A stretch of DNA of 64,000 nt from a virus: the IMG/VR virus record IMGVR_UViG_3300045988_125866. The stretch is one strand, 5' to 3'. Under the pieces are notes generated by a model. It made no database searches. It worked only from the letters and a program-made list of their open reading frames with translations, and was not told where the DNA came from. Shown here piece by piece: positions 9,717 to 62,178 of the stretch. Each line of letters opens with the position of its first letter. Position 1 is the stretch's first letter. The translations under genes were made by a program, and so were the position numbers.

Positions 9717-9749
9717 GGACTGCGCACAATAACCAAAACAAGAAGAATT

Positions 9750-27681: not shown

Positions 27682-27754
27682 GGACACATAGCTCAGTGGA
27701 TAGAGCATTTCCCTCCTAAGGAAAGGGTCGCAGGTTCGATCCCTGCTGTGTCCG
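27682..27754 (+). tRNA. tRNA-Arg(CCT): tRNA-Arg, anticodon CCT (reads AGG)
   Basis: Folded by hand. Acceptor ggacaca/tgtgtcc. D arm gctc-agtggata-gagc. Anticodon arm tttcc-ctCCTaa-ggaaa. Variable loop gggtc. T arm gcagg-ttcgatc-cctgc. Discriminator g. No encoded CCA. Confidence 0.9.
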
Positions 27755-28252
27755 CAATGTTTGCTTCGTTGATTTTTAGGTGCAAAGCTAACGTCCTTTA
27801 AGCTTATAAAGTAGGTAGCTCGGGCAACTACAATCTTACATCTTTTTAAAAACAATAGCAAACAATAGCTCTTTGGCTTAATGGTTGACAACATAGTATG
27901 CGTGGAAAAGAAGTAGCCGGATAGCGCAATGAGCGCCGTGACCTGGTGAAAGGACGCACGACATACGAAAATCCAGCTAATTTCTGCATTAAGTAGTTTG
28001 GCGAACCGCATCGGAAAGAAGAATTGTCGATGTAGGCACATACGAAAATAATGCAGTCTGGTGATTATATTATAATGAGTTCACATCACTCATAGTTTAT
28101 ATATTCAAAGAGGCACGTGGTGTACGAATGTCACGGTTAGACAACCCAATGATACCTTATCTTATCGTCTGACAGGAATTGGTGTAACTCCAATCGTGTC
28201 CTCCACTCTTTTGTTTGTTTTAGAATTTTTAATAAGTTATTATTTATTTTTT
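27755..28252 (+). other. about 500-nt ORF-free inter-tRNA region, probably transcribed (ends at a strong terminator)
   Basis: No credible ORF; track ORF 27616-28041(-) overlaps the tRNA. Direct repeat ACATACGAAAAT at about 27962 and 28040. Several hairpins (gcgc-aatga-gcgc, atgagt/actcat). Confidence 0.3.
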
Positions 28253-28290: not shown

Positions 28291-28364
28291 AGCGGAATAG
28301 TAGCAGTTGGTAGCTCGTCAGGCTCATATCCTGAAGGTCGGTGGTTCGAGTCCACCTTCCGCAA
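28291..28364 (+). tRNA. tRNA-Met(CAT): tRNA-Met-like, anticodon CAT, atypical (1:72 A-A mismatch, irregular D arm)
   Basis: Aligns position by position with the E. coli initiator tRNA as I recall it. Acceptor agcggaa/ttccgca (A1 x A72 mismatch). Anticodon arm tcagg-ctCATat-cctga. Variable loop aggtc. T arm ggtgg-ttcgagt-ccacc. The D stem pairs only as agc/gct. Could also be tRNA-Ile2 (lysidine). Confidence 0.65.
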
Positions 28365-28662
28365 CGAAATTTATTGCACATGTTAATTTTGCTCGTTAAT
28401 GTCTCCAGGCGTGGCGTTTTTTTAAATGAATATTAGTTTTAATGGCTCAGCTCTGTCTGTGAAGATAGAGCTCTGTTTTTAACCTTAAAGCAATTAGGTA
28501 ATGCGCTTACGCCGCATAGGGCGTATAGGGAAGAAGGCTCGATACCTTCTAAGGTTACGAATAGATCATATTTCTATTTTGTAGTTGTTGGTTATTATTT
28601 GAATGGGAACGGAGGTCGTAAAAAACGCACGGCCTCCTTCCTTTTTCCAAAACAAGAAAAAA

Positions 28663-43658: not shown

Positions 43659-44036
43659 ATGGAGAAGAAAACATTGACCCTCAACGTCAGCAAGCAATGG
43701 TTCGATATGATAGTATCGGGCGAAAAGACCGAGGAATATCGAGTTATTAAGCCATATTGGGTAGTACGATTTTTCCAAAATAACAACAATACTGTTGACG
43801 TGAAAGATTTAGCTTCGTGTTTGGCTGGGAGAACAGATTTGCTTAAAGGATATATTAATACGCAAAGAATTATATTGAAGCCATATACCCACGTTCTCTT
43901 CGTAAAAGGCTATCCGAAAGGTAATAAGCCGTCCGTTGAGAAGGAGATTGATAGTATATCAATCGGTAAGCCGAAGAGGGGTTTATGTCCTGATAAGTGG
44001 CTTGATACAGAGTTTTTCATAATTAAGTTTAAGTAG
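43659..44036 (+). CDS. ASCH-domain protein (125 aa)
   Basis: LNVSKQWFDMIVSGEKTEEYRVIKPYW fits the ASCH/PUA-like opening (f..i..G.Kt.E.R). Confidence 0.55.
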   Translation: MEKKTLTLNVSKQWFDMIVSGEKTEEYRVIKPYWVVRFFQNNNNTVDVKDLASCLAGRTDLLKGYINTQRIILKPYTHVLFVKGYPKGNKPSVEKEIDSISIGKPKRGLCPDKWLDTEFFIIKFK

Positions 44037-44039
44037 CGT

Positions 44040-44276
44040 ATGACAAATAAAGAATTTTTTAATGCGCATTGTGGAGAGCCTGTTCTTTATAAAGGTAAGG
44101 ACATTGGCGCATACGTGGCAGGGTATATAGAAGAAAAGTATATCATCTTAGGTTTTGATGATTATACAGGCTGCATTCAGTTCTTCACATCTAAAGTGCA
44201 TAAAACGCTTGGTGGAATATATAACTCATACCGATTCGCAAAATTGAAGTATTTGGAAGTGATAAAACATCGGTAA
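44040..44276 (+). CDS. hypothetical protein (78 aa)
   Basis: ORF track. TAGCGTATG start context. Confidence 0.55.
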   Translation: MTNKEFFNAHCGEPVLYKGKDIGAYVAGYIEEKYIILGFDDYTGCIQFFTSKVHKTLGGIYNSYRFAKLKYLEVIKHR

Positions 44277-44424
44277 TATGGAAAAATAAGAAAAATGTTG
44301 CGGCAACTGCCTTTGGATGGGATGCGAAGACATCTTAGGCAATGGATGGTGCTCCAAAAAAGATTGCGAAACATCTTGTGATAAGGTTTGCAAGAAACAT
44401 GAATTTTAAACTTTAAATATTAAA

Positions 44425-44796
44425 ATGGAAAATAAAGAATTGACTCTTAATGAGTATCAGAAGGCAGCAATGACTACTTGCATGTCTAGTTGTGAGAACT
44501 TTAGCTACATGGTCCTTAATCTTATGGGTGAACTTGGAGAGTTTACTTCAAAGATTGGTAAGCTTATCAGAAAAGGAAAAGCTCACATCGAAAACAACAA
44601 GTTAGTGGTTCACGACGATGTTGAGTGTGTAGATTTTGAGGCAATCCGCGCAGAACTCGGTGACTGTTTTTGGCAGTTAAACGGAATCTGTTCTGTATTA
44701 GGATATAACGTAAATTCTATATGCAGGGAAAACTTAAAAAAACTTGCATCTCGAAAGGATAGAGGCAAGATAGACGGTAATGGTGATTTTAGATAG
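44425..44796 (+). CDS. MazG-like nucleoside triphosphate pyrophosphohydrolase (123 aa)
   Basis: LNEYQKAAMTT ... LMGELGEFTSKIGK ... ELGDCFWQL: the EExxE/D-type all-alpha NTP-PPase pattern. Confidence 0.65.
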   Translation: MENKELTLNEYQKAAMTTCMSSCENFSYMVLNLMGELGEFTSKIGKLIRKGKAHIENNKLVVHDDVECVDFEAIRAELGDCFWQLNGICSVLGYNVNSICRENLKKLASRKDRGKIDGNGDFR

Positions 44797-44877
44797 CCTA
44801 TGAACGTGAAAGAAGCACTACAAGACAGAGTACGGCATTAGCTTCCTCCATGGAAGCTGAAGATTATCTATACGCTT

Positions 44878-44917
44878 AGGGGTGGCTACACGTTATGTGC
44901 GGTCACCCCTTTTTTTG
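44878..44917. terminator. bidirectional terminator at the convergence of the + and - gene blocks
   Basis: ggggtg (44879-44884) ... cacccc (44904-44909) followed by tttttttg. Lies between the last + gene (44796) and the last - gene (44969). Confidence 0.7.
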
Positions 44918-44968
44918 TTTGTAAATCAACTAATAACCAATAAAAACATCAGAAAAAACTAAGAACGT

Positions 44969-45556
44969 TTAATGTAGCTTTAATTTCCAGTAAATCCAAC
45001 CTAAAAACGCGAGAACGCCTATAAAAAGACAAGCTGATGCAATCTTACCTATATTCAAGAAAACTCTGTCTGTCTTTGATAGTTGTTTCTCGACATATAC
45101 TTTATCTTTCGATATTTTACTTATCACTGAGATTAAGGAGTCGCACTTGCTATGATACATCGTCGTACTATCCTTGTATTCTTTAAGGCTCGAAATACTA
45201 TCTCTCAGTATCTGTACATCTTCCTGTGATAGCTCGTGATATTCGTAGTGAAATCTGTCTTCGCCGACTTTGTTTCCGTTCGCATCGTACTTCGAAGCTG
45301 TGCTGTCCCTTATATGCGTCTTCTCTTTTGTGGTGGATTTAACGGATTCATTATGCGATGCTTTATAAGATTCCAGTTCCTTAATAAGCCTTGCGTTAAA
45401 GAGCGAATCCCACTTAGCCTCGTTACGTTTATCAGAGATGTATGTCTGTTTTTCTATCACGCGCTCTTTCGCCTTACATCTACAGAACATTGATAGAATC
45501 AGCATTGCTACTGCAATAGCAATTACAACTCTTGTTATCTTATCAACCAGTTTCAT
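44969..45556 (-). CDS. membrane-anchored coiled-coil protein, spanin-like lysis accessory (195 aa)
   Basis: N- and C-terminal TM helices with a long charged helical centre. Last gene of the holin/lysin cluster. Confidence 0.45.
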   Translation of the reverse strand: MKLVDKITRVVIAIAVAMLILSMFCRCKAKERVIEKQTYISDKRNEAKWDSLFNARLIKELESYKASHNESVKSTTKEKTHIRDSTASKYDANGNKVGEDRFHYEYHELSQEDVQILRDSISSLKEYKDSTTMYHSKCDSLISVISKISKDKVYVEKQLSKTDRVFLNIGKIASACLFIGVLAFLGWIYWKLKLH

Positions 45557-45559
45557 AAG

Positions 45560-46021
45560 CTACTGAATTACAATCGTTACTTTTTCCTTTTTATCCCAAG
45601 CAGTCTTCATGGTCTGAATGAGCTTGCTTGTCCAGAATCTGGAATCGCTAACCCATCCTTTCTTATCGTTTTTACCGACAAGAATACACCCCTCAGTGTC
45701 TTTTGCAGAGTTACCGCTATGTATGCGTACCCCACCAAATCCTTTGACGTTCAGAAGCAATGGCAACATCTTCTTGAACCGGTTAGAGTAGGTGTATACA
45801 CATTCGTAGCTGCCGCTTGGTATCGCAGTCTGCCCATACACCTTTTTGTTCTTGATTTTGTTCAATTCCATTTCTTGATTCAGCCCTCTGTCTGTATCCT
45901 CAAGAGTGTTGCATCCGAACAAATTACCATTCACGTACAGACGACTGATAGTATAGTCGTCCTTTTTCCAGGCCCTATCAATTAGTACTTCCATTCTCGT
46001 TTTCCTCCTCTTTTTTATCAA
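45560..46021 (-). CDS. putative cell-wall hydrolase, DUF5675 / YkuD-like fold (153 aa)
   Basis: VRIHSGNSAKDTEGCILVG resembles the H...S/T-x-GC catalytic motif of L,D-transpeptidase-fold enzymes. Position between the holin-like and spanin-like genes. Confidence 0.5.
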   Translation of the reverse strand: MIKKRRKTRMEVLIDRAWKKDDYTISRLYVNGNLFGCNTLEDTDRGLNQEMELNKIKNKKVYGQTAIPSGSYECVYTYSNRFKKMLPLLLNVKGFGGVRIHSGNSAKDTEGCILVGKNDKKGWVSDSRFWTSKLIQTMKTAWDKKEKVTIVIQ

Positions 46022-50854: not shown

Positions 50855-51379
50855 TCAATTTGTTATCCAGTACGTCACGAATACGTCCAGAAACCCTGCA
50901 ACCTCTGCCATATACCACACAGGCTTATATCCTTCGTCATCGTCCGAACAGCTTACGAGTAGCAGATAGATAAGAGCTATTACAGCCGTTGGTACCCAGC
51001 ACACCGACAGACACCAGCCTACACACCCTGCCGCAGCTATAAGCGCACCTCCTTTGTGAATAGGGTAGGCATCAGCATCGAGATAGTTGGGTGCTGCACC
51101 TACAAACATCAGTCCTGCGCAACCTATGAAGGCGAGACACTGTATGCCCTTACCTATGGTGAGCATACATATCATCATCAGTACCGCACACGTAACCATT
51201 ACTGCCGTGAATAGCCAACCATAATTCCGTTTGCGGTTGTCTCCGATGATTTCACTACCAGTACAACCCTGTAGCTGATAGTACACGTCACTCACCATAG
51301 CTGGCACACCGAAGCGCATAGCTGATAACAACAGAAATCCTCCAAGCAAGAGGAATGAAATCAATGAAAATATCCACAT
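50855..51379 (-). CDS. polytopic membrane protein (174 aa)
   Basis: ORF track. 5-6 TM helices. Confidence 0.6.
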   Translation of the reverse strand: MWIFSLISFLLLGGFLLLSAMRFGVPAMVSDVYYQLQGCTGSEIIGDNRKRNYGWLFTAVMVTCAVLMMICMLTIGKGIQCLAFIGCAGLMFVGAAPNYLDADAYPIHKGGALIAAAGCVGWCLSVCWVPTAVIALIYLLLVSCSDDDEGYKPVWYMAEVAGFLDVFVTYWITN

Positions 51380-51401
51380 AATACTTAACTTTTTAATCGT
51401 T

Positions 51402-51995
51402 CTACAACTTCATTTCGAGTTGCTTTGGATAGTCGGCAGTCACATCGAATGCCTCTACCTCTTTGATGGTCTTCAGCTCAGCCACGTCAGCCTTGTGCTT
51501 GGCAGTGACATTGAAGCATTCCAGGGCATACATTTCCAGCGCACTCAGCAACTGGATAGCCTTATCACAATCCACCTCCAGCTTAACGTCTCCAAGCCAA
51601 AGCGTAGTAGTCTGCTGACCTGCTGCCTTGGCGATGGTGGTGGAGTTCATCAAACCCACTCTCGTAGCCTTGTCAAGCCAAACGGTCATACCATTCAATA
51701 CAAAGCCATTGACCTTGCTAGAGGTATCATAAGCCTCAATCTCAGCAACCTTTGAGCGGATGCTATAGGCTAGCTCGGATGCATCGTGCTTGGTTTTCCA
51801 AGTCTCGTATTCAGCCTTAACCTCGTCGGCATTGTAATCAGTTACTGACACGGAGCATTCCACACACTCGTAGGCACCCATGCCTTCCTTTTCGGCTGGG
51901 TCGAAATGGATAAGGTAGATACCACCTTCTACTTCCTCTTTTTCTTTGTAATCGCTCTTGGCGATAATAGTCTTAACAAATGAAATCTTGCTCAT
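51402..51995 (-). CDS. DUF4376-like protein (tail-fibre-associated/assembly-like), 197 aa
   Basis: The pattern FVLNGMTVWLDKATRVGLMNS...LWLGDVKLEVDCDKAIQLLSALEMYALECFNVTAKHK resembles the DUF4376 domain seen next to phage fibres. From memory. Confidence 0.45.
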   Translation of the reverse strand: MSKISFVKTIIAKSDYKEKEEVEGGIYLIHFDPAEKEGMGAYECVECSVSVTDYNADEVKAEYETWKTKHDASELAYSIRSKVAEIEAYDTSSKVNGFVLNGMTVWLDKATRVGLMNSTTIAKAAGQQTTTLWLGDVKLEVDCDKAIQLLSALEMYALECFNVTAKHKADVAELKTIKEVEAFDVTADYPKQLEMKL

Positions 51996-52003
51996 ATTTA
52001 TAC

Positions 52004-53212
52004 TTATTTATGATTGTTTCTGATACATATCTTCCGCATATTTTGGCAATAGACAACATCCTTGTGCCGCATCATATTCCAAGCCTGCCATCTGATAGCG
52101 TAGGTATCACGACGAATCATCAGCCCTAGAAGGGAATTACATCTACAAGCAAATACCATTGCATCCTTGCTAGTAGGTTCATCTATCTCGTTCCACCACT
52201 TTATCAGTCCAAACAGATGGTCTCTTGTTCGGTTGATGGTATAGCACCTATGCGGCTTAATGATTGCGCCTGTCATTTGCACACCCTTCTTAGCCTCTTG
52301 GAGATAGACCTTATCAGGATGGAGAGTAAGCCCTAGATTTACCTTTAGCCATTTTCTTGCATCCTCCAAGGTATCTAGCAGCAATCGCTTGTCACGACTT
52401 ATGCAGACAAAATCATCAACATACCTTCCATAGCCCGAACCATCGCCCATCCTAGCCATTATCCACTTGTCGAAGATGCCCATCAGCAGATTGGCGAGTA
52501 TCTGACTAGGTAAATTGCCAATCGGTAATCCCTTGCCTTTCTCGTTCGTGAATAACGACTTATTCTTAGGCAGCTTGGCAAAGAGCGACAAATCTCCAAC
52601 CTTGATGCAATTTTTGGTAGGGTCGTGGAGGACGACTTTCTTCCATAACCATAACCAAAACTCTATATCGTTCTCGTGATACTCCTTTCGGATAATGTCC
52701 CCTACGATGTTATAGAGTCGTTGGCGGTTAATGCTCATAAAGAAGCCACTTAGGTCACACCTCAATATCCAGGCCTCCAAGGCATAATCTCCACTGATAG
52801 CCTCTATCTGACCTATAAGATGATTGATACCATAATCAACACCCTTACCCTTGCGACAAGCATAGGCGTTATCGGTCATATATTGCTCGAAGATAGACAA
52901 GAACTTGATAGCTAATATGTGATGTACTATTCTGTCCTTGAAGGTAGCACACCATACTTCCCGAAGCTTCGGGCGAGTGACACAGAAAGCCTTGCTCTGA
53001 CCTATCTCGTAGGTCATACTATTCAGCTCCAGATATAGCTGGTAGTTATTGGTGAGGAAGTTCATCTTATACTCGATGCAACCCCAAGTACTGCCCTTAT
53101 GCTTGCAGCAGTCTCGAAAGCCTTCATCTACAAGTTCTATCGGCACATATTCCCTCGCTATGTCGGTAGTCGTATTCTCTTCATAATCGGTCATTATATC
53201 AAATTTAAGCAT
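52004..53212 (-). CDS. DGR reverse transcriptase (402 aa)
   Basis: RPKLREVWCATFKDRIVHHIL, LRCDLSGFFMSI, GLPIGNLPSQILANLLM (the DGR-specific I/LGxxxSQ motif), YGRYVDDFVCI (YxDD). Directly downstream of the TR and Avd. Confidence 0.92.
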   Translation of the reverse strand: MLKFDIMTDYEENTTTDIAREYVPIELVDEGFRDCCKHKGSTWGCIEYKMNFLTNNYQLYLELNSMTYEIGQSKAFCVTRPKLREVWCATFKDRIVHHILAIKFLSIFEQYMTDNAYACRKGKGVDYGINHLIGQIEAISGDYALEAWILRCDLSGFFMSINRQRLYNIVGDIIRKEYHENDIEFWLWLWKKVVLHDPTKNCIKVGDLSLFAKLPKNKSLFTNEKGKGLPIGNLPSQILANLLMGIFDKWIMARMGDGSGYGRYVDDFVCISRDKRLLLDTLEDARKWLKVNLGLTLHPDKVYLQEAKKGVQMTGAIIKPHRCYTINRTRDHLFGLIKWWNEIDEPTSKDAMVFACRCNSLLGLMIRRDTYAIRWQAWNMMRHKDVVYCQNMRKICIRNNHK

Positions 53213-53243
53213 ACAGAAAATCTTATCGTCACTAAGTGATAAT

Positions 53244-53334
53244 CGAAAACTGGCAGGACATAGTAGCTATTGTTCTTGTTGTTGTTGTTCGCCTGAGAAT
53301 TGTAGTACCAAGCGTTCGTGGCATTGTTCTGCGT
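53244..53334 (-). repeat. DGR template repeat (TR), 91 nt (possibly 53240-53336)
   Basis: 80/91 identical to 53907-53997. On the coding (minus) strand it reads T Q N N A T N A W Y Y N S Q A N N N N K N N S Y Y V L P V F, rich in AAC/AAT, with 32 adenines. Confidence 0.92.
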
Positions 53335-53424
53335 TTACGGCTTCACTGACTTATTCCTAGCAACTCCATCCCTCAGAGGATGGCTGATTGCGGAAGCCCC
53401 TTGTCACATTTAGTGACGGCTCTC

Positions 53425-53805
53425 TTACCTTGCCGTAGCTCGGTAACTCTCACCTTTGCGATTCCTTGTCGATTTCAGCCAGCCATATCCCTCTTGCAAT
53501 ACCTTGTCAACTACATAGTTTAGGTTGGTTGCCGCCTTCACGCTCAAAAACTGCGCTTCGGCAAAGAGGGTGATTCTAGACTTGACCTCTGATAGACAAA
53601 GGATGAACTCGTTCAGATTGCGCTCACGGTCTTCAAAGGATGAGTTAATCCTTCTCACCAAGTCCAAGGCTGTGCAAGCCTTGCTTATCGCTACCTCGAA
53701 CTGTCCGTACCTCACTATCTTGCTAATAGTCTTAGAATAGTTCAATAGTAGCTTGCACAAGGTGAACGTGTCCTTGTATATCTGTAGATTCTCTGTATAT
53801 GCCAT
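53425..53805 (-). CDS. avd: DGR accessory variability determinant (Avd-like four-helix-bundle protein), 126 aa
   Basis: Size, helical character, basic C-terminus and position between the target gene and the TR. Resembles the 23S-rRNA-IVS/Avd family. Confidence 0.75.
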   Translation of the reverse strand: MAYTENLQIYKDTFTLCKLLLNYSKTISKIVRYGQFEVAISKACTALDLVRRINSSFEDRERNLNEFILCLSEVKSRITLFAEAQFLSVKAATNLNYVVDKVLQEGYGWLKSTRNRKGESYRATAR

Positions 53806-53898
53806 GGTTATTTATTCTAAAAATTGCATACTTGCTTGCTTATCTTGCTTGCCACCTCCCTTCCGTGGAAGAGATAAAGAGGCAAAGAGATAAAGAGG

Positions 53899-55830
53899 TC
53901 AGCAAGCGAAAACTGGCAGGACATAGCCGCTACTGCCCTTGCTGCTGTAGTTCGCCTGAGAATAGTAGAACCAAGCGTTCCTGGCATTGTTCTGCGTACT
54001 AGTCCATCTATTCTGACCATTCACGAACTTATAGTAAGCGTCAGCCACGCTATCCCCGAAGAGTGTTCTCAACACTTCTCGGATGGTGCCAGCATTACTG
54101 ATATGTACGTACTCCTGACCTACTGACATAAGGAAGCCATTCAGTTTCTCACCGCCAATCTCTAAGCTCTGACCATAGGCGAAGGAAAATGCAGGTACAC
54201 TAAGACTTCGCTCCTCAGCCTCTTGTCGAACCAAGAAGGACGATTGCTCTCCGTTCCAATAGTTAGGGTCAGACGATGTATTGCCATTGAGGGCGATTGA
54301 GGTAAATTGTAGATTCTGCGTACACCACTGATACTTTTGCAGCTTCGTCATATCCTTTAAGTCGGTGCAGCGGATGATGAAGGTACCTCTGTTAAGGCGA
54401 AGGTTCTGGTCTGACACCTTGATGGCGATAGCTTCCTCGGCAGTCTTGCCAGCAGCCACCCAGTCCTCGATGTAGTACTCAGTTGCATCAGAATCAAGCA
54501 CGTAGATACCTGTCTTGAACTGGTACATATTGACTTGAATAAGTCGCTGAGCTACCCTTGATGTGTAGGTACGAGAGTTCTTGTTAAAGCGAACATAGTA
54601 GCCATCCTCGTCATCAACCCTCACGGTGTACTCCTTGAGATACGGAACATAGATGGTCGCCTGTCCCTTATCATCGGTGGTGTAGGTTGTTGCCTTATTG
54701 TCGATGGTTACAATCACGTCCTTTCCTTCCCAAGGCGTGCCATTGCCATCGGTGTATTTGGTGACAGTCACGATAACTTTCTCGCTTGCCTCCTCATCAT
54801 AAGGCTCGTAGCTAAACGTGATGGTCTTGCTCACGCCCACAGAGGTAAAGCCTATTGGAGACAAGGGCTGAGCGTTGGCATACTCGGGGACGGCTACTTG
54901 GTAGTACACACCTCGGCTGACCTTGAATGTGGTCTTGCCCTCTGAGTCGGTGGTGTAGGTCTGAGGAGTCTTGCCGTTATTGAGAAATACGTTAATCTTG
55001 ATACCAGCCACCTTGATAGAGTCAACAGAAGAGGCAATTGTGACAGTCACTTCCTCATCAGTGTTGATAACATCTACCGATTTGGTTTCTCCGTTGCGGT
55101 TTGTCACAGAGATAGTCGAACCCGACATCTCTATATCGCAGGTTTCCGCACCTGTCGTGGCGGCCTCTGCGTCTTTGATGGCAGTAGTGAAATCTTTCTC
55201 ACGCTTTGTTTCTGCGTCCACACGAGATTGCTCTGCTTCTACTCTTGCATCTTCTGCGGCAGCTCTGTCTGTCTCTGCCTGCTTGCGAGTTATTTCTGCA
55301 TCAACACGTTCTTTCTCAGCAGATACTCTCTGCGTCTCGGCTTCCTTTCTCGCTTCCTCATTCGCATTGAGGGTATCGTTTATCTCCTTGTTGTTTTTCA
55401 GAACCTCATTCGCCTTATCAATTAGGTCACTCAACTCAACAGAAGGAGGCAGAATAACCATAGCCGTATCCATCTCTACGCTGTTGTCGCCCTCATCAGT
55501 AGTCCCAAACTCAGTATCAGCATCGGCATTGTTGGCCACGATGGCAAACTGAGGGTATTCGTTGCTTCGCCAGTCATTGCCGAATATCTTACCCTTTACC
55601 TCGATAGCATACGTGCCGAGGCTCATCTTATCACCCTCTACTCTCGCAAGGAGAACATTATCCTCCTTTACATCAATCGTAAATGCAAGAGGTATGCGTT
55701 TGAATTGATTACACACCTGTACCACCACGTCCGTACAGGCTGGCAAGGGGAAAGCCTTCGCTTGCCCCTCCACCATCTTCATCACTGGAATCCTCAGCGT
55801 GAAGTCATTACCTTTAACGATTTTCTTCAT
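53899..55830 (-). CDS. DGR target: tail-fibre/receptor-binding-like protein with C-terminal variable C-type-lectin/DUF1566-like domain (643 aa)
   Basis: N-terminal Ig-like region. Charged coiled coil (EARKEAETQRVSAEKERVDAEITRKQAETDRAAAEDARVEAEQSRVDAETKRE). Beta-rich repeats. The C-terminus ...NRWTSTQNNARNAWFYYSQANYSSKGSSGYVLPVFAC overlaps the VR. Confidence 0.85.
   Translation of the reverse strand: MKKIVKGNDFTLRIPVMKMVEGQAKAFPLPACTDVVVQVCNQFKRIPLAFTIDVKEDNVLLARVEGDKMSLGTYAIEVKGKIFGNDWRSNEYPQFAIVANNADADTEFGTTDEGDNSVEMDTAMVILPPSVELSDLIDKANEVLKNNKEINDTLNANEEARKEAETQRVSAEKERVDAEITRKQAETDRAAAEDARVEAEQSRVDAETKREKDFTTAIKDAEAATTGAETCDIEMSGSTISVTNRNGETKSVDVINTDEEVTVTIASSVDSIKVAGIKINVFLNNGKTPQTYTTDSEGKTTFKVSRGVYYQVAVPEYANAQPLSPIGFTSVGVSKTITFSYEPYDEEASEKVIVTVTKYTDGNGTPWEGKDVIVTIDNKATTYTTDDKGQATIYVPYLKEYTVRVDDEDGYYVRFNKNSRTYTSRVAQRLIQVNMYQFKTGIYVLDSDATEYYIEDWVAAGKTAEEAIAIKVSDQNLRLNRGTFIIRCTDLKDMTKLQKYQWCTQNLQFTSIALNGNTSSDPNYWNGEQSSFLVRQEAEERSLSVPAFSFAYGQSLEIGGEKLNGFLMSVGQEYVHISNAGTIREVLRTLFGDSVADAYYKFVNGQNRWTSTQNNARNAWFYYSQANYSSKGSSGYVLPVFAC
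53907..53997 (-). repeat. DGR variable repeat (VR), last 31 codons of the target gene
   Basis: 11 mismatches to the TR. Nine fall at TR adenines (coding strand): Y>F, N>Y, N>Y, N>S, N>S, N>G (two As), N>S, and one of two changes in Y>G. Ends 5 nt before the stop codon (53899-53901). Confidence 0.92.
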
Positions 55831-55848
55831 ATAGCTATACTATTTTAA

Positions 55849-58800
55849 TTAGTACTGTCTGTTAATTATTCTCGCAAGATATGGCTGTGTAAAACCTTCG
55901 AGTGTGTAAGACTTGTCGGGGTTATACATCAACAGAAATTCATAAGAGTCTCCTGCCGCCATATCAAAATCAGCCCAATAGCCACCGTTCCAGTGTGTAA
56001 TAAGCGGGAGGCCTTTAGTGTTCCATCGCGCCACATTTGCGCCGTCTTTTGTTGTGCATCTTCCTCTCATGGCGATGGACTCGCTGCCAATATCCATCAC
56101 GATTGTAAGCCTTACGCAGAACTTGTCATCGACATGCTGCGAACCGAACAGTATCTGCTTGATCGTCCCGAGAGTGGGCAGCGCAAGCGCAAGATAATTT
56201 TTCGAGCTGACTATCAGGGTAAGCGAATCTATTTTCTGTACTTCGTTATAAGTAGTTCCTCTAAACAAACCTGTATTATCAAGGAATACATCCTTGGTAG
56301 TCATATTTATCATCGTGTACTTATATCCGTATACTCCACCGTTGACCGATACGTCACCAATACCGCGCAGCGCATAGTTCTGCACGCCGTTCTTCGCTTC
56401 CGCAAAGTAGCACACGTTGCTATGGTAGCCGTCAGTTGTATCGATGGCATCTACCCTCATCTTCGCACTGAGGTAAGTTCCAGGGCCAGGAACAGCGAGG
56501 GTCTGGTCCGTGTCGATGAATATAGCACTCCGCCCCTCTGCCTTGATCAGCTGAAAACGAGTATCTGTCAACATCATGCTGTCTTCCTTGAATAAAGCAC
56601 CACTCGACAGACCTTCGCCCGTTATCTCGAACCGTCCGAACTTCTTTCGTGTACCACTGTCCTCATCTTCGTAATATCTCACACCGAAAGCACCCTTGTC
56701 GGCATACATGTAGCCATCCTTAGAGACACGGAACGGAGAGTCGGCGGCTGTCGACGAACCTACCCAGAGAGGATATTGCTTTCCGTCTTCATCCTTCGCC
56801 TCATCTATATCGTAGTTGCCGAAGTGAGCGAGCGTATTTTGGTTATTACCATCTTTCGCCCAAACATGGTGAACATTGATGGTGTCAGCATCTATCAGGT
56901 CGGCATTAAGCTTGCCGTCCTGAAACATTGCAGTGGTAGTGCCGTTATTGCTTACCTTCACCTTGTCGCCATACAGCTCCACACCATCTGCTGTAATATT
57001 TAAGCCCGCAGCCTTGGCTGTCGCCTTGTCGATGAGGTCAGTCTTCTTCTCTGTGTACTCTGTCATCAGAGCACCTTCCTCCAACTTCGGCTTAGCCACC
57101 CAAGCCTCACAGCCGTCAACAGCTCGCAGCAGTACCGACTGAGGTAACACAGTTTCGCCATCACCCGTATAAAGGTCTATACGCCAGTGTACCCAGTATC
57201 GCTTCCATTCGCTCGTCAGTGTGAAGTTCGATGCTCCGTCGGCCACATTCTCCGTCACCTTTCCCTGGCTGTTCTCTGCGTAGATATTCACGTGAACGCT
57301 GTCCTTATACAGGTGTGCTCTCAGAGTTCCGCTTCCCTTCGCAAGGAACGAGAATACATAATTCTTCCTCAGCTCGAAGTTAAGAATCCTTCCGTTCTCT
57401 CCGTTGAATCTCAGGAAGTCACACATATTATTGTTACTGCTGTCTGCCTTTCCGTGAACTACGGCATACGCACCCTCGTAGGTGTCCTGTGCCACCTCAT
57501 TGGCCGTATAAAGGTTGCTCAACTGTCCGCTCGCAACAAGCGTCCTCGTGTCGTCGAGCATATTTCCGCCAAGGTAGTCGTAGTCCGTTTCCGCAGGAGT
57601 CCAGCCTGTGTACTCGCTTCCTTCCTCCAGCATTGGCATACATATCCATCCGTTACCAGAGGCAGTATAACCAAATGTTCCGTCCACGGTTATGCCATTG
57701 TAGACAAAGATATTCACCTCGATAAACTCTGCGTCGCCCGAGTTGAAAGTGTAGTTCACCTGCCTCCATTGGTTCACCTCGTTCTCCTTCGTTATCCACT
57801 GCATGTTACCCGAGGTGGCAGTAATTTGGTCCCCTCTATTGCCATTCAGCGCAGCCATCTTGAACACCTCCGAATGAATCTGTAAGTCCTTCGTGTCGCA
57901 CTTTATCCATGCGGAAAATGTATAATCGGTGTTCTTCTTCACAGCGATGCCGTTGATGGTCAGTCCCCAGAAAAGTCCCTTGTACTGAGGCGTTCCGTTA
58001 CCCGTCACCGAGAAGCGGATGGCATTATGGCCGTTCACGCCCTGTGTTATCGTAGGCTGGAAGAGGCCGTCCGAATAATATATATCACCCTTCCTTGTCA
58101 ATGACGTATCTCGCAGTAGGTTGTGCCGTCCTTGCTGGTTCTGAGTCACGCTGAGAGTAATCTCCTTTGCTGTCTGCTTGATAGTAGATGTGTAGGCGTT
58201 GAGAACGGTAGGATTACTTCCTTTCAGGTCTTTCTCCAGTGCCTCAAATTTCGACTGGTACTGCTTGGCCGTAGCCTTTACACTGCCCATGTACTTTGTC
58301 ACATTCACAGAGAATGGAACCTGTGTACTGTAGCTCTTCCCTCCGAGAGAGAATGTGATTGTGACAAATCCCTCGCTCACCGACACCTTGTCTCCGCTCG
58401 CCAGAGTGATAGTGTTCACAGAATTGAGCTTCACCTTTATGTATCCTGTAGCCAAGCTTGCCGCAGCCGTACAGTTCTGCATATAGCTCACCCTTACGTC
58501 TGAGCACTCGTTAGTAACATTCTCGCCACCTCTCATCACCATTACTCGTCCTTCTGCCGTGGTGTCCGACACGATGCCGTCATCGTTAGTGTCGAGCACG
58601 ATGGGCTGTACGAGAAGTATGCTCACTCCGTCCTCTCCGTCATTTCCGTTCACACCAGGAGTACCTTGTTCTCCTTTCTCGCCCTGTGGTCCCTGTGCGC
58701 CCGTTTCGCCCTGCGCACCTGTTTCTCCTTTAGGTCCCTGTGGCCCTTCGTCACCTCTATCTCCCTTTTCGCCTTTGTCTCCTTTGCCTCCCTTTTCTCC

Positions 58801-61800
58801 CGACAACACCTTCTGCCAGTCGCTGTTTGCGTCCGAAGGCTCTTGACTTGTTCCGTTCTCGTTGATACAAGTCCACAGGGCGTTGTTATGGTTCACTTGG
58901 TCGTAGTAGTCATAGCTTCCTGCCTTCCACTCACCTCTGTAGTTCACCATGTGCATAGCATCCCCAGTCGAAGATACCCACTCAAAGATACCGCTATTAA
59001 GCCTTATCTTGTCAGGCGAAAGCACGAATACCTCCTTGCCATCGTGTGTATATCTGTCTACACCCTTGAAGCCTACGATGCGAGGTGTGTTCTCGCCAGT
59101 ACTCTCCAGTATCAGCACACCTTTTCTGCTATCATCGTCAACAATTTGTCCTCCAACAAAAACAGCTCTATGTCCGTCAAGCACAATAGTGTCTCCTGCT
59201 TCAGGAATACCACCTATCTCTGCCGTTGCAAACTCCTCAGTCATTGAGTCTAACGACAAAGAATGTTTGCCGATTACTATCCATGAGAACATCTGTCCTC
59301 CATACAGTTCGTTGCCATATCCGTCATATATCTTCTCGTTCACACTCGATACGCCGTGCTCAGGGATTGTTCGCCAGTAGCTCTTGTTGCTTGCGTTCGT
59401 GGTTCCAGTAGCCAGCGTTCCGATGGTCTTGCACCTCACTTGGTCTCCCTCTCTCCACAGGTTTTGTGTAGCCGTAGTTCCGTCATCCGCCAAGAGATAA
59501 CAGAGCCAGCCTTTGCATTTATCTACAGAGGTCTCTATCCATTCACTGCTCTCGCTTTCCCATGTTACAGGCACGACCTTCACTATCTTGCTTCCTGCGC
59601 CCGAGAGATACACATTACCGCCTGCATACGACAGTTTTCTTACCTCCAGTTGATTAAAGATAGCCTTTCCCCAAATGGTGAGGTTGGTGATAAAGCCGTT
59701 GTATTTCCCGTTTTCCTTCTTGACAGCGAAACCTTGCTCTGCTTCATTGTCGTAGTCGATGGACTGCAACGACTCCAAGATGGCCCGTCCTGCCTCGTCT
59801 ATCAACGCTCCGCCCTTACCAAAGTAAGCACCTCCGTTCAACTTCACTAAAGCCTCGCTTACCAGTCCTTTGATGAAGGTAATCACGCCTTGTGCGGTGT
59901 CATCCTTTAGCTTCGACAGAAAGTGTTTTGAAGCTTCATTGATAGTCGAGTCGGTTATCTGTTTCGATGTCTCGCTACTTACCTTTCCGTTTCCAGACTC
60001 AAGGGATGAAATCTGCTGCTTTATCTTAGCCATCGTTCCGACTTCTACATCGTTCCTCAGAGTTACTTCATAGGTTGGTATGCCTCCTTCGTTTTCTCTT
60101 ATAACGAGCTGGTCGATGGTCACCTTGCCTCCTATGTGTAAGTCGCCATCGTCAAACTCCATGATGTCGCCGGCCTTCAACGTGTCGTGAAGGCTCTTGA
60201 TGGTTCCGGTTTTATCTTCAGTCGCTTGGTCGTTTTGTCTCGCCATAAACACTTCGTCTACCTTGGGCTGGTACACATACCTTGTGTAGTCGTTCTTGTC
60301 TATGTAGGCAATGGCGTATTTCAGAAGCTTTAGTGATGCTGCGTTCACATAAGAGTCGGGCAGGGTGATACCTGTCAGTACAAAGTGATCTCCTTTTCTG
60401 ATAGGATAGTCTTTGTATGGGAACCACAGCTCCAAGGCATCGTCCTTTACTCTCTGTATGGTCAACCTCCATCTGCCGTTCTCTTTTACCGATGATGCTA
60501 CCTTAAAGGTTCTTCCTCCACACATGCCATCCTTCATGGCGATAGAGAAATCACTGTCCTTCAGGTCGTTGATATCGAAGTCGATAGACGGATTCAGGTA
60601 GATGTCAACATTGTTTACGGTTTGTCCGTCTTCAAACCTTCCGTTGTCATTTGGTGCAACGCCCTCGTCAATCTCATCAACACGCACACCACCGATAACC
60701 ATTTCTTCGATTGTAGGGTATATCTCTACGATACCGTTGGTCTTGTCATCGTTATCAAAATATTGCGATGCGGAACGAAGACCAATCTGCTGTATGTTCA
60801 CAGAGTCAATATAGGGCCTGTATGGATTCGTCGAAAAGATATGTTCCTTGCCCGTTGGGTTTACATATTCCTTATCAGCCTTACTCAGCGAGTTGTAGTA
60901 GTCGTTAAGTGAAACATGAGGGAATCCTGGCAACATCAGCCTGTTGATAGACATGTTGTTGGGAAGATTCTGCGCATACTCCTTCATTGACGATGGCACT
61001 GCCTTAGTGTTCAGGCCGCCAGTTATATACAACTTTCTGTTTCCTGCGTTTACTTGTGCGATAAACCTGTCAAGATTTTCTTTTGACGGCTCGTCTCCGT
61101 TGTCTTCCATGTTGTTCTTCACTTTCGAGTATAACATTACGGCCTGCCCGCTGCTCAAAGCTGTCACAACACAGGTGATGACCGTCTGAAAGTCAAACGT
61201 CACCTTCAGGACGTATCCGTATGTCTGTTCTTTACCAGTCCCGTCATTAGGTACGAAAACTCTTGGGATGGTGAAATAATTGTCAATGTACTCCATGTCG
61301 ATATACACTGACAGATAACTTGTTGCAGTGTTCACCTCTGTGATGTTACAGAAGTACTTTGTGCCAAGGTCTGCGTAGTAGTGAGATGGGAGGTTCTTTT
61401 CTGAACCGTAAGCTCTTAGCCTTGTCACGATTTGCTGTTCTGAGTCTGCATTTTGGATCAACTCACTCAAACCTTTTCCAAGCCCGTACTTGAAGATATT
61501 TTTTGCGAGCACGCCTGCCGTTCCAACGTACACATTCCGACCTCTTACGATGAAGTTTACGTCCCACTCGCTATTTACTAAGGCCAAAGCTTCCCAACAG
61601 GTCTTTCCGTCAACGGTGATAGACTTGGATTCGATATCGTTCTTAGGTGTTCCTCCTCCATAAACATTCGTCCAGTCCGCATCCGAACAGCCTCTCTGCA
61701 AAGACCTTTTCTTGTTGCGTGAGTACACTTTCCACACACCCTTGCCGATCTGTTCGTCAAGGTTGGCTTGTATTCTGTCGAGAAGGTCGTCAAGTGTCTC

Positions 61801-62178
61801 TACGTAGAACGAAAACTTCGGCAGGGCAGTATAATGCAGTTCGTTGTCGTTCAGAACCACGTCGAGAAACTCCGATCTCGACAACTCGTCCTGCAACGCA
61901 TTGAACTTTACGCTGTCATACACGAATCCCTCTCCGTATGTGTTTAGCCTTGCTTTTTTGTCCTTTCCCGGCTCATAGTTCAACTCGAAGCGCTCTCCTC
62001 TGTATATGATGTAGTCGCCTATCTTAAAGTTGATTGGAGCGTTGTTTTTGAAGTCAATGGTAAGGAAGCAGTCTCCCATCCATTTGTCTGAGTACTGCAA
62101 TCCGTGAACGACAACCTCGTCATCGTTCACGTCTGTAAGCTTTGTTCCGTCCTTATGATATATGTTCCACCTACTCAT
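55849..62178 (-). CDS. giant tail protein (Tal/host-specificity-like N-terminus, collagen-like segment, multiple beta-rich domains), 2109 aa
   Basis: Follows the Dit-like and tape-measure genes. The N-terminus resembles phage minor structural/prophage-tail proteins. A 58-triplet Gly-X-Y run, GEKGGKGDKGEKGDRGDEGPQGPKGETGAQGETGAQGPQGEKGEQGTPGVNGNDGEDG, is encoded at 58627-58800. Confidence 0.75.
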   Translation of the reverse strand: MSRWNIYHKDGTKLTDVNDDEVVVHGLQYSDKWMGDCFLTIDFKNNAPINFKIGDYIIYRGERFELNYEPGKDKKARLNTYGEGFVYDSVKFNALQDELSRSEFLDVVLNDNELHYTALPKFSFYVETLDDLLDRIQANLDEQIGKGVWKVYSRNKKRSLQRGCSDADWTNVYGGGTPKNDIESKSITVDGKTCWEALALVNSEWDVNFIVRGRNVYVGTAGVLAKNIFKYGLGKGLSELIQNADSEQQIVTRLRAYGSEKNLPSHYYADLGTKYFCNITEVNTATSYLSVYIDMEYIDNYFTIPRVFVPNDGTGKEQTYGYVLKVTFDFQTVITCVVTALSSGQAVMLYSKVKNNMEDNGDEPSKENLDRFIAQVNAGNRKLYITGGLNTKAVPSSMKEYAQNLPNNMSINRLMLPGFPHVSLNDYYNSLSKADKEYVNPTGKEHIFSTNPYRPYIDSVNIQQIGLRSASQYFDNDDKTNGIVEIYPTIEEMVIGGVRVDEIDEGVAPNDNGRFEDGQTVNNVDIYLNPSIDFDINDLKDSDFSIAMKDGMCGGRTFKVASSVKENGRWRLTIQRVKDDALELWFPYKDYPIRKGDHFVLTGITLPDSYVNAASLKLLKYAIAYIDKNDYTRYVYQPKVDEVFMARQNDQATEDKTGTIKSLHDTLKAGDIMEFDDGDLHIGGKVTIDQLVIRENEGGIPTYEVTLRNDVEVGTMAKIKQQISSLESGNGKVSSETSKQITDSTINEASKHFLSKLKDDTAQGVITFIKGLVSEALVKLNGGAYFGKGGALIDEAGRAILESLQSIDYDNEAEQGFAVKKENGKYNGFITNLTIWGKAIFNQLEVRKLSYAGGNVYLSGAGSKIVKVVPVTWESESSEWIETSVDKCKGWLCYLLADDGTTATQNLWREGDQVRCKTIGTLATGTTNASNKSYWRTIPEHGVSSVNEKIYDGYGNELYGGQMFSWIVIGKHSLSLDSMTEEFATAEIGGIPEAGDTIVLDGHRAVFVGGQIVDDDSRKGVLILESTGENTPRIVGFKGVDRYTHDGKEVFVLSPDKIRLNSGIFEWVSSTGDAMHMVNYRGEWKAGSYDYYDQVNHNNALWTCINENGTSQEPSDANSDWQKVLSGEKGGKGDKGEKGDRGDEGPQGPKGETGAQGETGAQGPQGEKGEQGTPGVNGNDGEDGVSILLVQPIVLDTNDDGIVSDTTAEGRVMVMRGGENVTNECSDVRVSYMQNCTAAASLATGYIKVKLNSVNTITLASGDKVSVSEGFVTITFSLGGKSYSTQVPFSVNVTKYMGSVKATAKQYQSKFEALEKDLKGSNPTVLNAYTSTIKQTAKEITLSVTQNQQGRHNLLRDTSLTRKGDIYYSDGLFQPTITQGVNGHNAIRFSVTGNGTPQYKGLFWGLTINGIAVKKNTDYTFSAWIKCDTKDLQIHSEVFKMAALNGNRGDQITATSGNMQWITKENEVNQWRQVNYTFNSGDAEFIEVNIFVYNGITVDGTFGYTASGNGWICMPMLEEGSEYTGWTPAETDYDYLGGNMLDDTRTLVASGQLSNLYTANEVAQDTYEGAYAVVHGKADSSNNNMCDFLRFNGENGRILNFELRKNYVFSFLAKGSGTLRAHLYKDSVHVNIYAENSQGKVTENVADGASNFTLTSEWKRYWVHWRIDLYTGDGETVLPQSVLLRAVDGCEAWVAKPKLEEGALMTEYTEKKTDLIDKATAKAAGLNITADGVELYGDKVKVSNNGTTTAMFQDGKLNADLIDADTINVHHVWAKDGNNQNTLAHFGNYDIDEAKDEDGKQYPLWVGSSTAADSPFRVSKDGYMYADKGAFGVRYYEDEDSGTRKKFGRFEITGEGLSSGALFKEDSMMLTDTRFQLIKAEGRSAIFIDTDQTLAVPGPGTYLSAKMRVDAIDTTDGYHSNVCYFAEAKNGVQNYALRGIGDVSVNGGVYGYKYTMINMTTKDVFLDNTGLFRGTTYNEVQKIDSLTLIVSSKNYLALALPTLGTIKQILFGSQHVDDKFCVRLTIVMDIGSESIAMRGRCTTKDGANVARWNTKGLPLITHWNGGYWADFDMAAGDSYEFLLMYNPDKSYTLEGFTQPYLARIINRQY

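What the first reader, a model, noticed from the sequence alone, without database searches (positions are those of the whole stretch)
52004..55830. Complete diversity-generating retroelement targeting a tail-fibre-like protein
On the minus strand the order is target gene (VR at its 3' end), Avd, TR, RT. TR 53244-53334 and VR 53907-53997 are 80/91 identical, and 9 of the 11 differences sit at adenines of the TR coding strand. The TR reads TQNNATNAWYYNSQANNNNKNNSYYVLPVF. The VR reads TQNNARNAWFYYSQANYSSKGSSGYVLPVF. This is the classic AAC/AAT-codon template. The RT carries the DGR-specific IGNLPSQ motif and YVDD. The variable C-terminus looks like a C-type-lectin/DUF1566-type ligand-binding fold. 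The gene sits next to the 2109-aa fibre/Tal protein, so the DGR most likely diversifies receptor binding.
Basis: partly seen in the sequence, partly recalled or inferred. Interest (0 to 1): 0.8.

Follow-up and report, generated by a model that had tools for sequence, protein, structure and literature searches.

The report
Phage diversity-generating retroelement on a tail protein
This is a real and complete diversity-generating retroelement in an uncultured gut phage that rewrites the tip of a tail-module protein, so it is a well-known kind of system, here with two family-specific RNA structures.

Summary
TR (53244-53334, minus strand) and VR (53907-53997) are 80/91 identical, and 9 of the 11 differences lie at TR adenines (P = 1e-3). 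Across 24 related loci, 263 of 277 TR/VR substitutions are at TR adenines.

Near-clonal relatives differ by 15-16 nt in the 75-nt VR. They differ by 0-1 nt in the 378 nt upstream and by 0 nt across avd, TR and the spacer. That indicates ongoing mutagenic homing.

- **RT:** its best solved-structure match is BPP-1 bRT (2e-24), and it carries IGNLPSQ and YVDD.
- **Avd:** the 126-aa basic protein matches the PHROG family 'Avd protein of DGR' (1e-6).
- **Variable domain:** it has no Pfam or PDB sequence match. A confident AlphaFold model (pLDDT 97.7) resembles DUF1566 / Lcl C-terminal, C-type-lectin-like domains.
- **Context:** the cassette sits in the tail module, in the order tape measure, 2109-aa fibre, target, avd, TR, RT.

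This is a new member of a known kind: architecture target-avd-TR-RT with a CLec2/DUF1566-type VR, like the Bacteroides 'Bacuni' phages.

Extras:
- A covarying structured RNA lies just upstream of TR.
- A long-range helix pairs the avd start codon region with the post-TR spacer.
- Some relatives lack the cassette, and their VRs are unchanged across many samples.
- A separate UG27 RT system lies elsewhere in the window.

The parts
53899..55830 (-). DGR target gene (643 aa): conserved N-terminal domain, coiled coil at about residues 135-225, Ig-like/prealbumin-like sandwiches, and a C-terminal ~205-aa variable-ligand domain
   Evidence: ORF. Weak Big_1, CarboxypepD_reg and SpaA hits. More than 4123 homologs. 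The C-terminal domain family has 149 clusters at 50% identity, nearly always at the extreme C-terminus. AF2 pLDDT 97.7. DUF1566-like fold.
53907..53997 (-). Variable repeat (VR), last 30 codons of the target. Homology to TR runs on to 53904
   Evidence: 80/91 identical to TR with 9 of 11 mismatches at TR adenines. Hypervariable columns in 120 homologs coincide with A-containing TR codons.
53904..53924 (-). IMH-like invariant 3' end of VR (ATGTCCTGCCAGTTTTCGCTT). TR has ATGTCCTGCCAGTTTTCGATT (53241-53261), and homology ends after it
   Evidence: No variable column among relatives, including the A in CCAG. The fixed A/C difference marks the boundary.
53806..53898 (-). Target-avd intergenic region with a CT-rich / purine-rich imperfect inverted repeat (GCTTGC...GCAAGC)
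   Evidence: DNA fold -15.2 kcal/mol, z = -1.14, not significant. A similar arrangement is seen in L002.
53425..53805 (-). avd (accessory variability determinant-like), 126 aa, pI 9.45
   Evidence: phrog_3206 'Avd protein of DGR', 1e-6, covering residues 1-119. pI and length. Position between target and TR. No detectable similarity to BPP-1 Avd.
53786..53805 (-). avd start-codon strand (ATGGCATATACAGAGAATCT) of a long-range RNA helix
   Evidence: Pairs with 53208-53223. Conserved with compensatory changes across the family.
53339..53419 (-). Structured non-coding RNA element between avd stop and TR. P1 hairpin: 53413-53419 with 53399-53407. P2 closing helix: 53393-53398 with 53339-53344
   Evidence: RNAalifold and pair counts: 100% of cells paired, 5 of 6 P2 pairs with compensatory changes, slid controls 29-41%. 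About 10 distinct complementary P2 versions. No Rfam match.
53244..53334 (-). Template repeat (TR): 32 adenines, 11 AAC/AAT codons, non-coding in this phage
   Evidence: Identical or nearly identical among relatives whose VRs all differ. Theoretical repertoire about 10^18 peptides.
53208..53223 (-). Spacer strand (AGATTTTCTGTATGCT) of the long-range helix. It overlaps the first ATG of the RT ORF
52004..53212 (-). DGR reverse transcriptase (402 aa from the first ATG; the conserved start is probably the ATG at 53192-53194)
   Evidence: RVT_1 2.4e-14. phrog_1423 8.6e-63. PDB 8ub7 bRT 2e-24. Bacteroides phage F2 DGR RT, 40% identity. Start-codon comparison. Motifs.
55849..62178 (-). Context: 2109-aa tail fibre/tip protein with collagen repeats and CBM_4_9, immediately upstream of the target
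51402..51995 (-). Context: DUF4376 tail-fibre-like protein immediately downstream of RT. In cassette-less relatives it directly follows the target gene

Best explanation
A complete diversity-generating retroelement of the commonest architecture (target-avd-TR-RT) sits in the tail module of an uncultured gut phage of about 84 kb, probably temperate and probably infecting Prevotella or another Bacteroidota.

Inferred by analogy to BPP-1: the region is transcribed as sense RNA. The RT, with pentameric Avd, copies the 91-nt TR into cDNA and misincorporates opposite adenines. The cDNA then replaces the VR, the last 30 codons of the 643-aa target, with the 3' limit set by the invariant IMH-like end.

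Shown here:
- the adenine-specific TR-to-VR pattern;
- an invariant TR against ever-different VRs in relatives;
- VR-only differences between near-clonal genomes;
- an intact RT with catalytic motifs.

The varied residues lie in the C-terminal beta-strand region of a DUF1566 / C-type-lectin-like domain on a protein with a coiled coil and Ig-like domains. The gene lies directly after the tape measure and the 2109-aa fibre. The most likely role is therefore to diversify a ligand-binding tip of the tail, with a repertoire of about 10^18 peptides, to follow changing host surface receptors.

Family-specific additions are predicted from covariation and not tested:
- an ~80-nt structured RNA immediately 5' of TR;
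- a helix pairing the avd translation start with the spacer 3' of TR. It closes avd plus TR into one RNA domain and may act like the BPP-1 avd:Sp duplex and/or occlude the avd start codon.
For: - **TR/VR in the window:** 80/91 identical, 9 of 11 mismatches at A, P = 1.1e-3.
- **TR/VR in the family:** 24 loci give 263 of 277 substitutions at TR-A, while A makes up 33% of TR bases.
- **Variability in homologs:** entropy in 120 homologs peaks exactly at A-containing TR codons.
- **Near-clonal genomes:** L017, L018 and L034 differ by 0-1 nt in the 378 nt upstream of VR, 15-16 nt in the 75-nt VR, and 0 nt in the 673 nt from the VR 3' end through avd, TR and spacer.
- **Copy counts:** single RT sequences recur on 26-39 contigs, while linked targets are almost all singletons.
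- **Cassette-less relatives:** they carry one identical target protein on at least 23 and 13 contigs.
- **RT:** bRT 2e-24 with aligned IGxxxSQ and YxDD; phrog_1423 8.6e-63.
- **Avd:** phrog_3206 1e-6; pI 9.45 and 126 aa, against 9.5 +/- 0.7 and 128 aa in PMC5758913.
- **Fold:** AF2 pLDDT 97.7. BFVD TM 0.71-0.75 at E 1e-10 to 6e-8, including a DUF1566 protein and a 'tail fiber protein'. Top PDB hit is Lcl-CTD with probability 0.98, described as C-type-lectin-like and trimeric (PMC11162425).
- **Context:** TMP-162aa-2109aa-target-avd-RT-DUF4376. There is no terminator-like site on the minus strand inside the cassette.
- **RNA elements:**
Against: - There are no read-level data from the source sample, so activity in this particular genome is inferred from relatives.
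- Two of the 11 differences in the window are not at adenines. Across the family about 5% are not. This is known for 23% of DGRs (PMC5758913).
- Avd shows no profile similarity to BPP-1 Avd and only E = 0.011 to the Bacteroides phage F2 Avd.
- The inverted repeat downstream of VR is not significant (z = -1.14).
- The variable domain matches no Pfam CLec-type family, and the only PDB match is partial (79 columns, E = 0.11).
- Nothing shows directly that the target is on the virion or binds a host receptor.
- The long-range helix is weakest in the window itself (rank 6 of 868, z = -1.35).
Confidence: 0.88

Rival explanations
1. The DGR is real, but the diversified protein is not the primary host-receptor binder. 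It could be an accessory adhesin or decoration, for example one binding capsule, mucin or other glycans, or a protein acting in another conflict, as proposed for the second Quimbyvirus target.
For: - The target has several Ig-like/prealbumin-like domains and no recognisable receptor-binding-protein family.
- A separate 2109-aa fibre with a CBM domain lies next to it and could be the main receptor binder.
- Relatives without the cassette persist with fixed VRs.
- DGR targets outside structural roles are documented (PMC8008677).
Against: - The gene lies inside the tail module, between the fibre and a DUF4376 fibre-like gene.
- Family members carry collagen, fibritin_C and phage-fibre repeats N-terminal to the same domain.
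- In the closest cultured relatives (Bacuni phages), VR differences track host range (PMC8143477).
Confidence: 0.25
2. The cassette in this genome is a fossil. TR and VR record past homing, but the element is no longer active.
For: There are two non-adenine differences in the window's VR. There is no read-level evidence. Some relatives have lost the cassette altogether.
Against: - RT, avd, TR and the RNA elements are intact and under conservation. There are zero differences over 673 nt among relatives whose VRs differ by 15-16 nt.
- The catalytic motifs are present.
- A drifted VR looks different. L013 has many non-A changes.
Confidence: 0.07
3. The repeat is an ordinary duplication, and the adenine bias is chance.
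For: None beyond the small numbers in the window alone (11 mismatches).
Against: P = 1.1e-3 in the window. 263 of 277 substitutions in 24 loci are at A. The repeat sits beside a DGR-type RT and Avd.
Confidence: 0.01

Closest known systems
Bordetella phage BPP-1 DGR (mtd-avd-TR-brt)
   Same: - Same gene order, with VR at the 3' end of a tail-module gene.
- A-to-N pattern on an AAC-rich TR.
- An Avd of about 126-128 basic residues.
- The RT is the best solved-structure match (8ub7, 2e-24).
- Pairing between RNA upstream and downstream of TR exists in both (avd:Sp 'cPRT Stop' duplex, bioRxiv 10.1101/2023.10.23.563531).
   Different: - The RT match to bRT is distant (2e-24, in two stretches). Avd and target are not detectably similar.
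- The target domain is DUF1566-like, not Mtd-type.
- The TR-RT spacer is about 45 nt against 140 nt in BPP-1. The structured RNA lies upstream of TR.
- The upstream strand of the long-range duplex is the avd start codon region, about 450 nt upstream of TR, not the last nucleotides of avd.
- There is no significant GC-rich hairpin after VR.
Bacteroides uniformis 'Bacuni' phages F1/F2/F4 DGR (PMC8143477)
   Same: - They carry the closest RTs in GenBank phages (37-40% identity).
- Order is target-avd-TR-RT.
- Hosts are gut Bacteroidota.
- The VR is of the DUF1566/Fib_succ_major (CLec2) type with a similar motif...NAW...N..K......V(R/L)PV.
   Different: - The Bacuni genome is 40 kb and has two targets; here the genome is about 84 kb with one VR in the 64 kb examined.
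- The target proteins share no detectable sequence similarity.
- The avd-start:spacer helix is absent in F2.
- The P1 RNA motif was found only next to RTs at least 53% identical to this one.
Legionella pneumophila DGR (LdtA), the exemplar of Wu et al. category 'd' / CLec2 VR class (PMC5758913)
   Same: DUF1566-type variable domain. The avd-TR-RT core belongs to architecture B.
   Different: It is a cellular lipoprotein target on an integrative conjugative element and has an MSL accessory gene. Here the target is a phage tail-module protein, and the domain is too divergent for the DUF1566 Pfam model.
Hankyphage / Quimbyvirus DGRs of Bacteroides phages (PMC8008677)
   Same: Temperate gut Bacteroidota phages with DGRs acting on C-type-lectin-fold domains downstream of tail fibre genes.
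   Different: There is no nucleotide similarity. The RT here is a single intact ORF, not frameshifted. No second target in a defence island was found in this window.

Membership tests
Diversity-generating retroelement (DGR) | Reverse transcriptase of the DGR clade with the (I/L)GxxxSQ motif and YxDD catalytic site | tested here: met
   Best PDB match is BPP-1 bRT (8ub7), 2e-24, with IGNLPSQ aligned to IGSLTSQ and YVDD to YMDD. phrog_1423 8.6e-63. Nearest GenBank phage RTs are DGR RTs of Bacteroides phages. Below cut-off for group II, retron and DRT models.
Diversity-generating retroelement (DGR) | A TR/VR repeat pair near the RT whose differences fall at TR adenines | tested here: met
   9 of 11 in the window, P = 1.1e-3. 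263 of 277 in 24 related loci.
Diversity-generating retroelement (DGR) | VR in frame inside a protein-coding target, with TR adenines in codon positions 1-2 (AAC/AAT) | tested here: met
   VR is the last 30 codons of the 643-aa ORF. There are 11 AAC/AAT codons and only one codon (AAG) that can mutate to a stop.
Diversity-generating retroelement (DGR) | Accessory variability determinant (Avd): small, basic protein next to TR | tested here: met
   phrog_3206 'Avd protein of DGR', 1e-6, over residues 1-119 of 126. pI 9.45. Caveats: no hit to bAvd in PDB or by hhalign, and Pfam bAvd hits 1 of 28 homologs at E = 0.072. The four-helix-bundle pentamer fold was not modelled.
Diversity-generating retroelement (DGR) | IMH at the VR 3' end and a non-identical IMH* at the TR 3' end marking the limit of mutagenesis | tested here: inconclusive
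   An invariant 21-nt 3' end is shared by VR and TR, with one fixed difference (GCTT against GATT), and homology ends after it. It is not GC-rich as in BPP-1, and its function is untested.
Diversity-generating retroelement (DGR) | GC-rich inverted repeat (cruciform) downstream of IMH. This feature is present in only 34% of DGRs (PMC5758913) | tested here: inconclusive
   An imperfect inverted repeat is present, but z = -1.14 against shuffles.
Diversity-generating retroelement (DGR) | Ongoing diversification: VR varies while TR and flanks stay constant in closely related genomes | tested here: met
   L017, L018 and L034 differ by 15-16 nt in the VR, 0-1 nt in the 378 nt upstream, and 0 nt in 673 nt downstream.
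Diversity-generating retroelement (DGR) | Adenine-mutagenic cDNA synthesis and retrohoming demonstrated | not testable with these tools
   This needs reads from the sample or biochemistry.
CLec2 / DUF1566-type DGR variable protein (Wu et al. category 'd') | Sequence match of the VR-bearing domain to DUF1566, DUF823 or Fib_succ_major | tested here: not met
   0 of 62 diverse family members hit these, FGE-sulfatase or Lectin_C at E <= 0.1. No PDB sequence or profile hit.
CLec2 / DUF1566-type DGR variable protein (Wu et al. category 'd') | C-type-lectin-like / DUF1566 fold with VR forming the C-terminal part of the domain | tested here: met
   AF2 pLDDT 97.7. BFVD: a DUF1566 domain-containing protein from phage cr10_1 at TM 0.74, E = 2.3e-10, and three further DUF1566 proteins at E from 3e-3 to 2e-2. 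Top PDB hit is Lcl-CTD (DUF1566) with probability 0.98 but E = 0.11 over 79 columns. VR maps to the last beta-strands, model residues 173-202.
BPP-1-type DGR RNA (cPRT Stop duplex) | A duplex between sequence upstream of TR and the spacer downstream of TR | tested here: inconclusive
   A covarying duplex exists, but its upstream strand is the avd start region, about 450 nt upstream of TR. Whether it plays the same role is unknown. An alternative CGUCAC:GUGACG pairing next to TR has no covariation to test.

The most novel reading that the evidence does not exclude
This RT lineage may use a rearranged DGR RNA. Instead of a long structured spacer after TR, as in BPP-1, most of the structure lies before TR. 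That structure is an ~80-115-nt multi-helix element that carries the invariant CGUCAC-loop-GUGACAAGG hairpin.

A 16-40-bp helix also joins the avd translation-initiation region to the short post-TR spacer. In one subgroup it also covers the RT start codon. This helix would make translation of avd (and RT) and use of the same RNA as template mutually exclusive. Alternatively it could move the cDNA stop to the 5' end of avd, or create an RNase III site that releases the avd-TR RNA.
Probability: 0.35. Interest if true: 0.55.

Novelty: new member of a known kind. Interest (0 to 1): 0.35.

Why it matters
DGRs are common in gut phages, so this cassette mainly confirms what is known.

It offers three useful things:
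- It defines a large phage target family (more than 4000 proteins) whose variable domain escapes Pfam but folds like DUF1566. That helps annotate many 'hypothetical' tail proteins.
- The lineage contains natural cassette-plus and cassette-minus relatives at the same locus. This is a ready-made comparison of diversified and frozen receptor-binding tips.
- The covarying RNA elements around TR give testable predictions on how the template RNA is organised in a DGR far from the BPP-1 model.

Tried and rejected
- **AF2 with a shallow alignment.** 38 close homologs gave an unusable model (pLDDT 54.5). Adding distant representatives fixed it.
- **Sequence searches of the target.** Pfam, NCBIfam, PDB phmmer, PDB profile search and tblastn against GenBank phages found nothing for the variable domain.
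- **hhalign.** The Avd family against bAvd, and the C-terminal domain against Mtd, gave no similarity.
- **Rfam.** No match in 51500-56500 at E <= 1.
- **Hairpin downstream of VR.** Not significant.
- **Whole avd-TR-spacer RNA fold of the window.** z = +0.59, so single-sequence folding is uninformative.
- **Second VR in the window.** None.
- **Repeats near the second RT.** No TR/VR pair, so it is not a DGR. It is a UG27 system.
- **Host from reference genomes.** The RT pattern scan of 185,579 species genomes found no relative.
- **MAFFT alignment of the two helix strands.** It put the spacer out of register, so pairs were tabulated per sequence instead.
- **P1 motif beyond this lineage.** 95 of 119 hits in viral contigs have no RT nearby and are probably chance matches.
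- **Other cultured phages.** The long-range helix is absent from Bacteroides phage F2.
- **Sigma-70 promoter scan.** Uninformative for Bacteroidota.

Full report
**Observation**

The minus strand of 52004-55830 holds three ORFs: 643 aa (53899-55830), 126 aa (53425-53805) and 402 aa (52004-53212). The only direct repeat in 51000-57000 is 53241-53334 against 53904-53997, 94 nt.

Nine of the 11 mismatches are at TR adenines. The other two are C>G and T>G, the latter adjacent to an A>G. With 32 A in 91 nt, P = 1.1e-3.

The VR is in frame and forms the last 30 codons of the 643-aa ORF. No other copy exists in the 64-kb window.

**Components**

- **RT.** It matches RVT_1 and phrog_1423 at 8.6e-63. 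Its best solved relative is the BPP-1 DGR RT at 2e-24. IGNLPSQ aligns to IGSLTSQ, YVDD to YMDD, and the first catalytic Asp is also aligned. It scores far below the curated cut-offs of group II, retron and DRT models. Its nearest GenBank phage relatives are the DGR RTs of Bacteroides phages F1, F2 and F4 at 37-40% identity. Comparison with relatives suggests the real start is the second ATG (53192-53194).
- **Avd.** The 126-aa protein hits the PHROG family 'Avd protein of DGR' at 1e-6 over nearly its whole length. Its pI is 9.45, as expected for Avd (PMC5758913). It has no detectable similarity to BPP-1 Avd and only E = 0.011 to the F2 Avd.

**Is it active?**

Twenty-four related cassettes from viral contigs, with RTs 57-93% identical, all have a TR/VR pair in the same place. 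Of 277 substitutions, 263 are at TR adenines, and adenine is 33% of TR bases. About 24 of the 263 are the fixed A/C difference at the homology boundary. Three VRs carry a 3-nt insertion.

Six loci share an identical TR while each has a different VR.

In the sub-group L015-L018 and L034, no column varies from the VR 3' end through avd, the RNA element, TR and the spacer (673 nt), while 24 of 75 VR columns vary. L017, L018 and L034 differ by 0-1 nt in the 378 nt upstream of VR but by 15-16 nt inside it.

Among the 120 closest protein homologs, variability is confined to residues encoded by A-containing TR codons.

Single RT sequences recur on 26-39 contigs, whereas linked targets are nearly all singletons.

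**A natural control**

In L010, L011 and L013 the target homolog is followed directly by the DUF4376 gene. The avd-TR-RT block is absent at that site. Those target proteins occur as one identical sequence on at least 23 and 13 contigs, and the L013 VR shows many non-adenine changes. I could not exclude a cassette elsewhere in those genomes.

**The target**

No sequence method recognises the C-terminal ~205 residues. A profile search of 1.84 billion representatives finds only 149 clusters. The domain is nearly always at the extreme C-terminus, behind variable N-terminal parts that contain Ig-like sandwiches, collagen, fibritin_C or fibre repeats.

With a deep alignment, AlphaFold gives pLDDT 97.7. 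Foldseek against viral models gives full-length matches (TM 0.71-0.75, E from 1e-10 to 6e-8). These include a DUF1566 protein of a crAss-like phage and a 'tail fiber protein', and further DUF1566 proteins match more weakly.

Against the PDB nothing is significant. The top hit (probability 0.98, 79 columns) is the Legionella Lcl C-terminal domain, which is a DUF1566, C-type-lectin-like trimer (PMC11162425).

By eye, the VR motif resembles that of the Bacuni phage VRs, whose targets are DUF1566/Fib_succ_major (PMC8143477). Wu et al. place such targets in category 'd', the CLec2 VR class (PMC5758913). I therefore file it as working like, and folding like, a CLec2 target, while noting that the Pfam criterion is not met.

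**Context and host**

The source contig (84 kb, ENA ERZ28573326) has the order tape measure (2298 aa), 162 aa, 2109-aa collagen/CBM fibre, target, avd, RT, DUF4376. The same order is seen in a 95-kb relative.

There is no close relative among GenBank phages. The fibre N-terminus resembles LoVEphage tail proteins at 40% identity. Relatives come from human gut metagenomes. One Avd homolog is labelled 'uncultured Prevotella sp.'.

**RNA features (predicted)**

1. *Structured element upstream of TR.* The ~90 nt between the avd stop and TR are nearly identical between sub-groups whose Avd proteins are only about 63% identical. They fold into an invariant hairpin (CGUCAC-loop-GUGAC) and a closing helix P2. 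In P2, 5 of 6 pairs show compensatory changes and 100% of cells pair, against 29-41% when the partner is slid. About ten different complementary P2 versions are seen, and by eye the inner helices also change in step. The hairpin motif occurs next to an RT only in this RT lineage. All 24 RT-bearing hits have it 206-291 nt upstream of the RT on the same strand.

2. *Long-range helix.* The avd start region (AUGGCA....C.GAG.A) is complementary to the spacer 15-35 nt after TR.
   - The spacer is the best duplex partner of the 28-nt avd start region among about 1600 same-strand windows in 10 of 13 representative loci.
   - It is also best in 9 of 10 loci of a partly overlapping set retrieved through the hairpin motif.
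   - Several columns show A-U to G-C exchanges.
   - The G-U pairs are standard pairs only in the sense strand, so the helix is an RNA feature.
   - In one sub-group the helix reaches about 40 bp and includes the RT start codon.
   - In the window itself it is the weakest: 13 bp plus 3-4 bp, rank 6 of 868, z = -1.35.

BPP-1 also needs a duplex between avd and the spacer, the 'cPRT Stop', and such distal duplexes were predicted in 207 of 278 DGRs (bioRxiv 10.1101/2023.10.23.563531). The principle is therefore known. The placement at the avd start codon, and the structured element upstream rather than downstream of TR, are the differences.

**Verdict**

This is a canonical and very probably active phage DGR, and a new member of a known kind.

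Noticed in passing
window 10078-14277 (+): A second, unrelated reverse transcriptase system. ORF 10078-11343 matches PADLOC RT_UG27 at 2.7e-227 over the full profile. Its two associated genes follow: RTas346 (12696-13154, 4.9e-60) and RTas337 (13129-14277, 2.3e-93). There is no TR/VR repeat nearby. It is a candidate phage-borne defence RT (DRT class).
   Followed up: partly
window 16553-17563 (+), 24081-25244 (-), 27682-27755, 28291-28365: Two tyrosine-integrase-like ORFs (phrog_1) and two tRNA genes (Arg-CCT, Met-CAT). They suggest a temperate lifestyle or a mosaic accessory region.
   Followed up: no
window 5539-15750 (+): A repeated 40-47-nt motif (ATTATTAACCAA...AGAATTATGGA) lies directly upstream of several start codons (5818, 6245, 7044, 14733, 15704; also 5539, 10060, 13192). 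It looks like a shared promoter or translation-initiation signal of this gene block.
   Followed up: no
L010 6083-6198, L011, L013 6365-6388: Relatives in which the target homolog is followed directly by the DUF4376 gene, with avd-TR-RT absent at this site. Their target proteins are identical across many samples (at least 23 and 13 contigs).
   Followed up: partly
L025, L026, L029, L037, L038 (avd at about 2875-3483): In one sub-group the avd ORF has no stop before TR. It reads through the RNA element and TR (202-205 aa) and ends just before the RT start.
   Followed up: no
L022, L031, L033 VRs; homologs such as P0022 and P0060: VR length polymorphism: 3-nt insertions relative to TR in the AAC run, and longer VRs in some homologs. 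This is consistent with slippage described for other DGRs.
   Followed up: no
window 53226-53240 (-) against 53399-53419 (-): The spacer after TR contains a conserved GUGACGAU that could pair with the CGUCAC 5' strand of the P1 hairpin. That would be an alternative pairing bracketing TR. Both strands are invariant, so covariation cannot test it.
   Followed up: no
window 44000-46000: GC and AT skew change sign, and the gene strand switches from + to -. This marks the boundary between the early/accessory block and the tail/lysis block.
   Followed up: no
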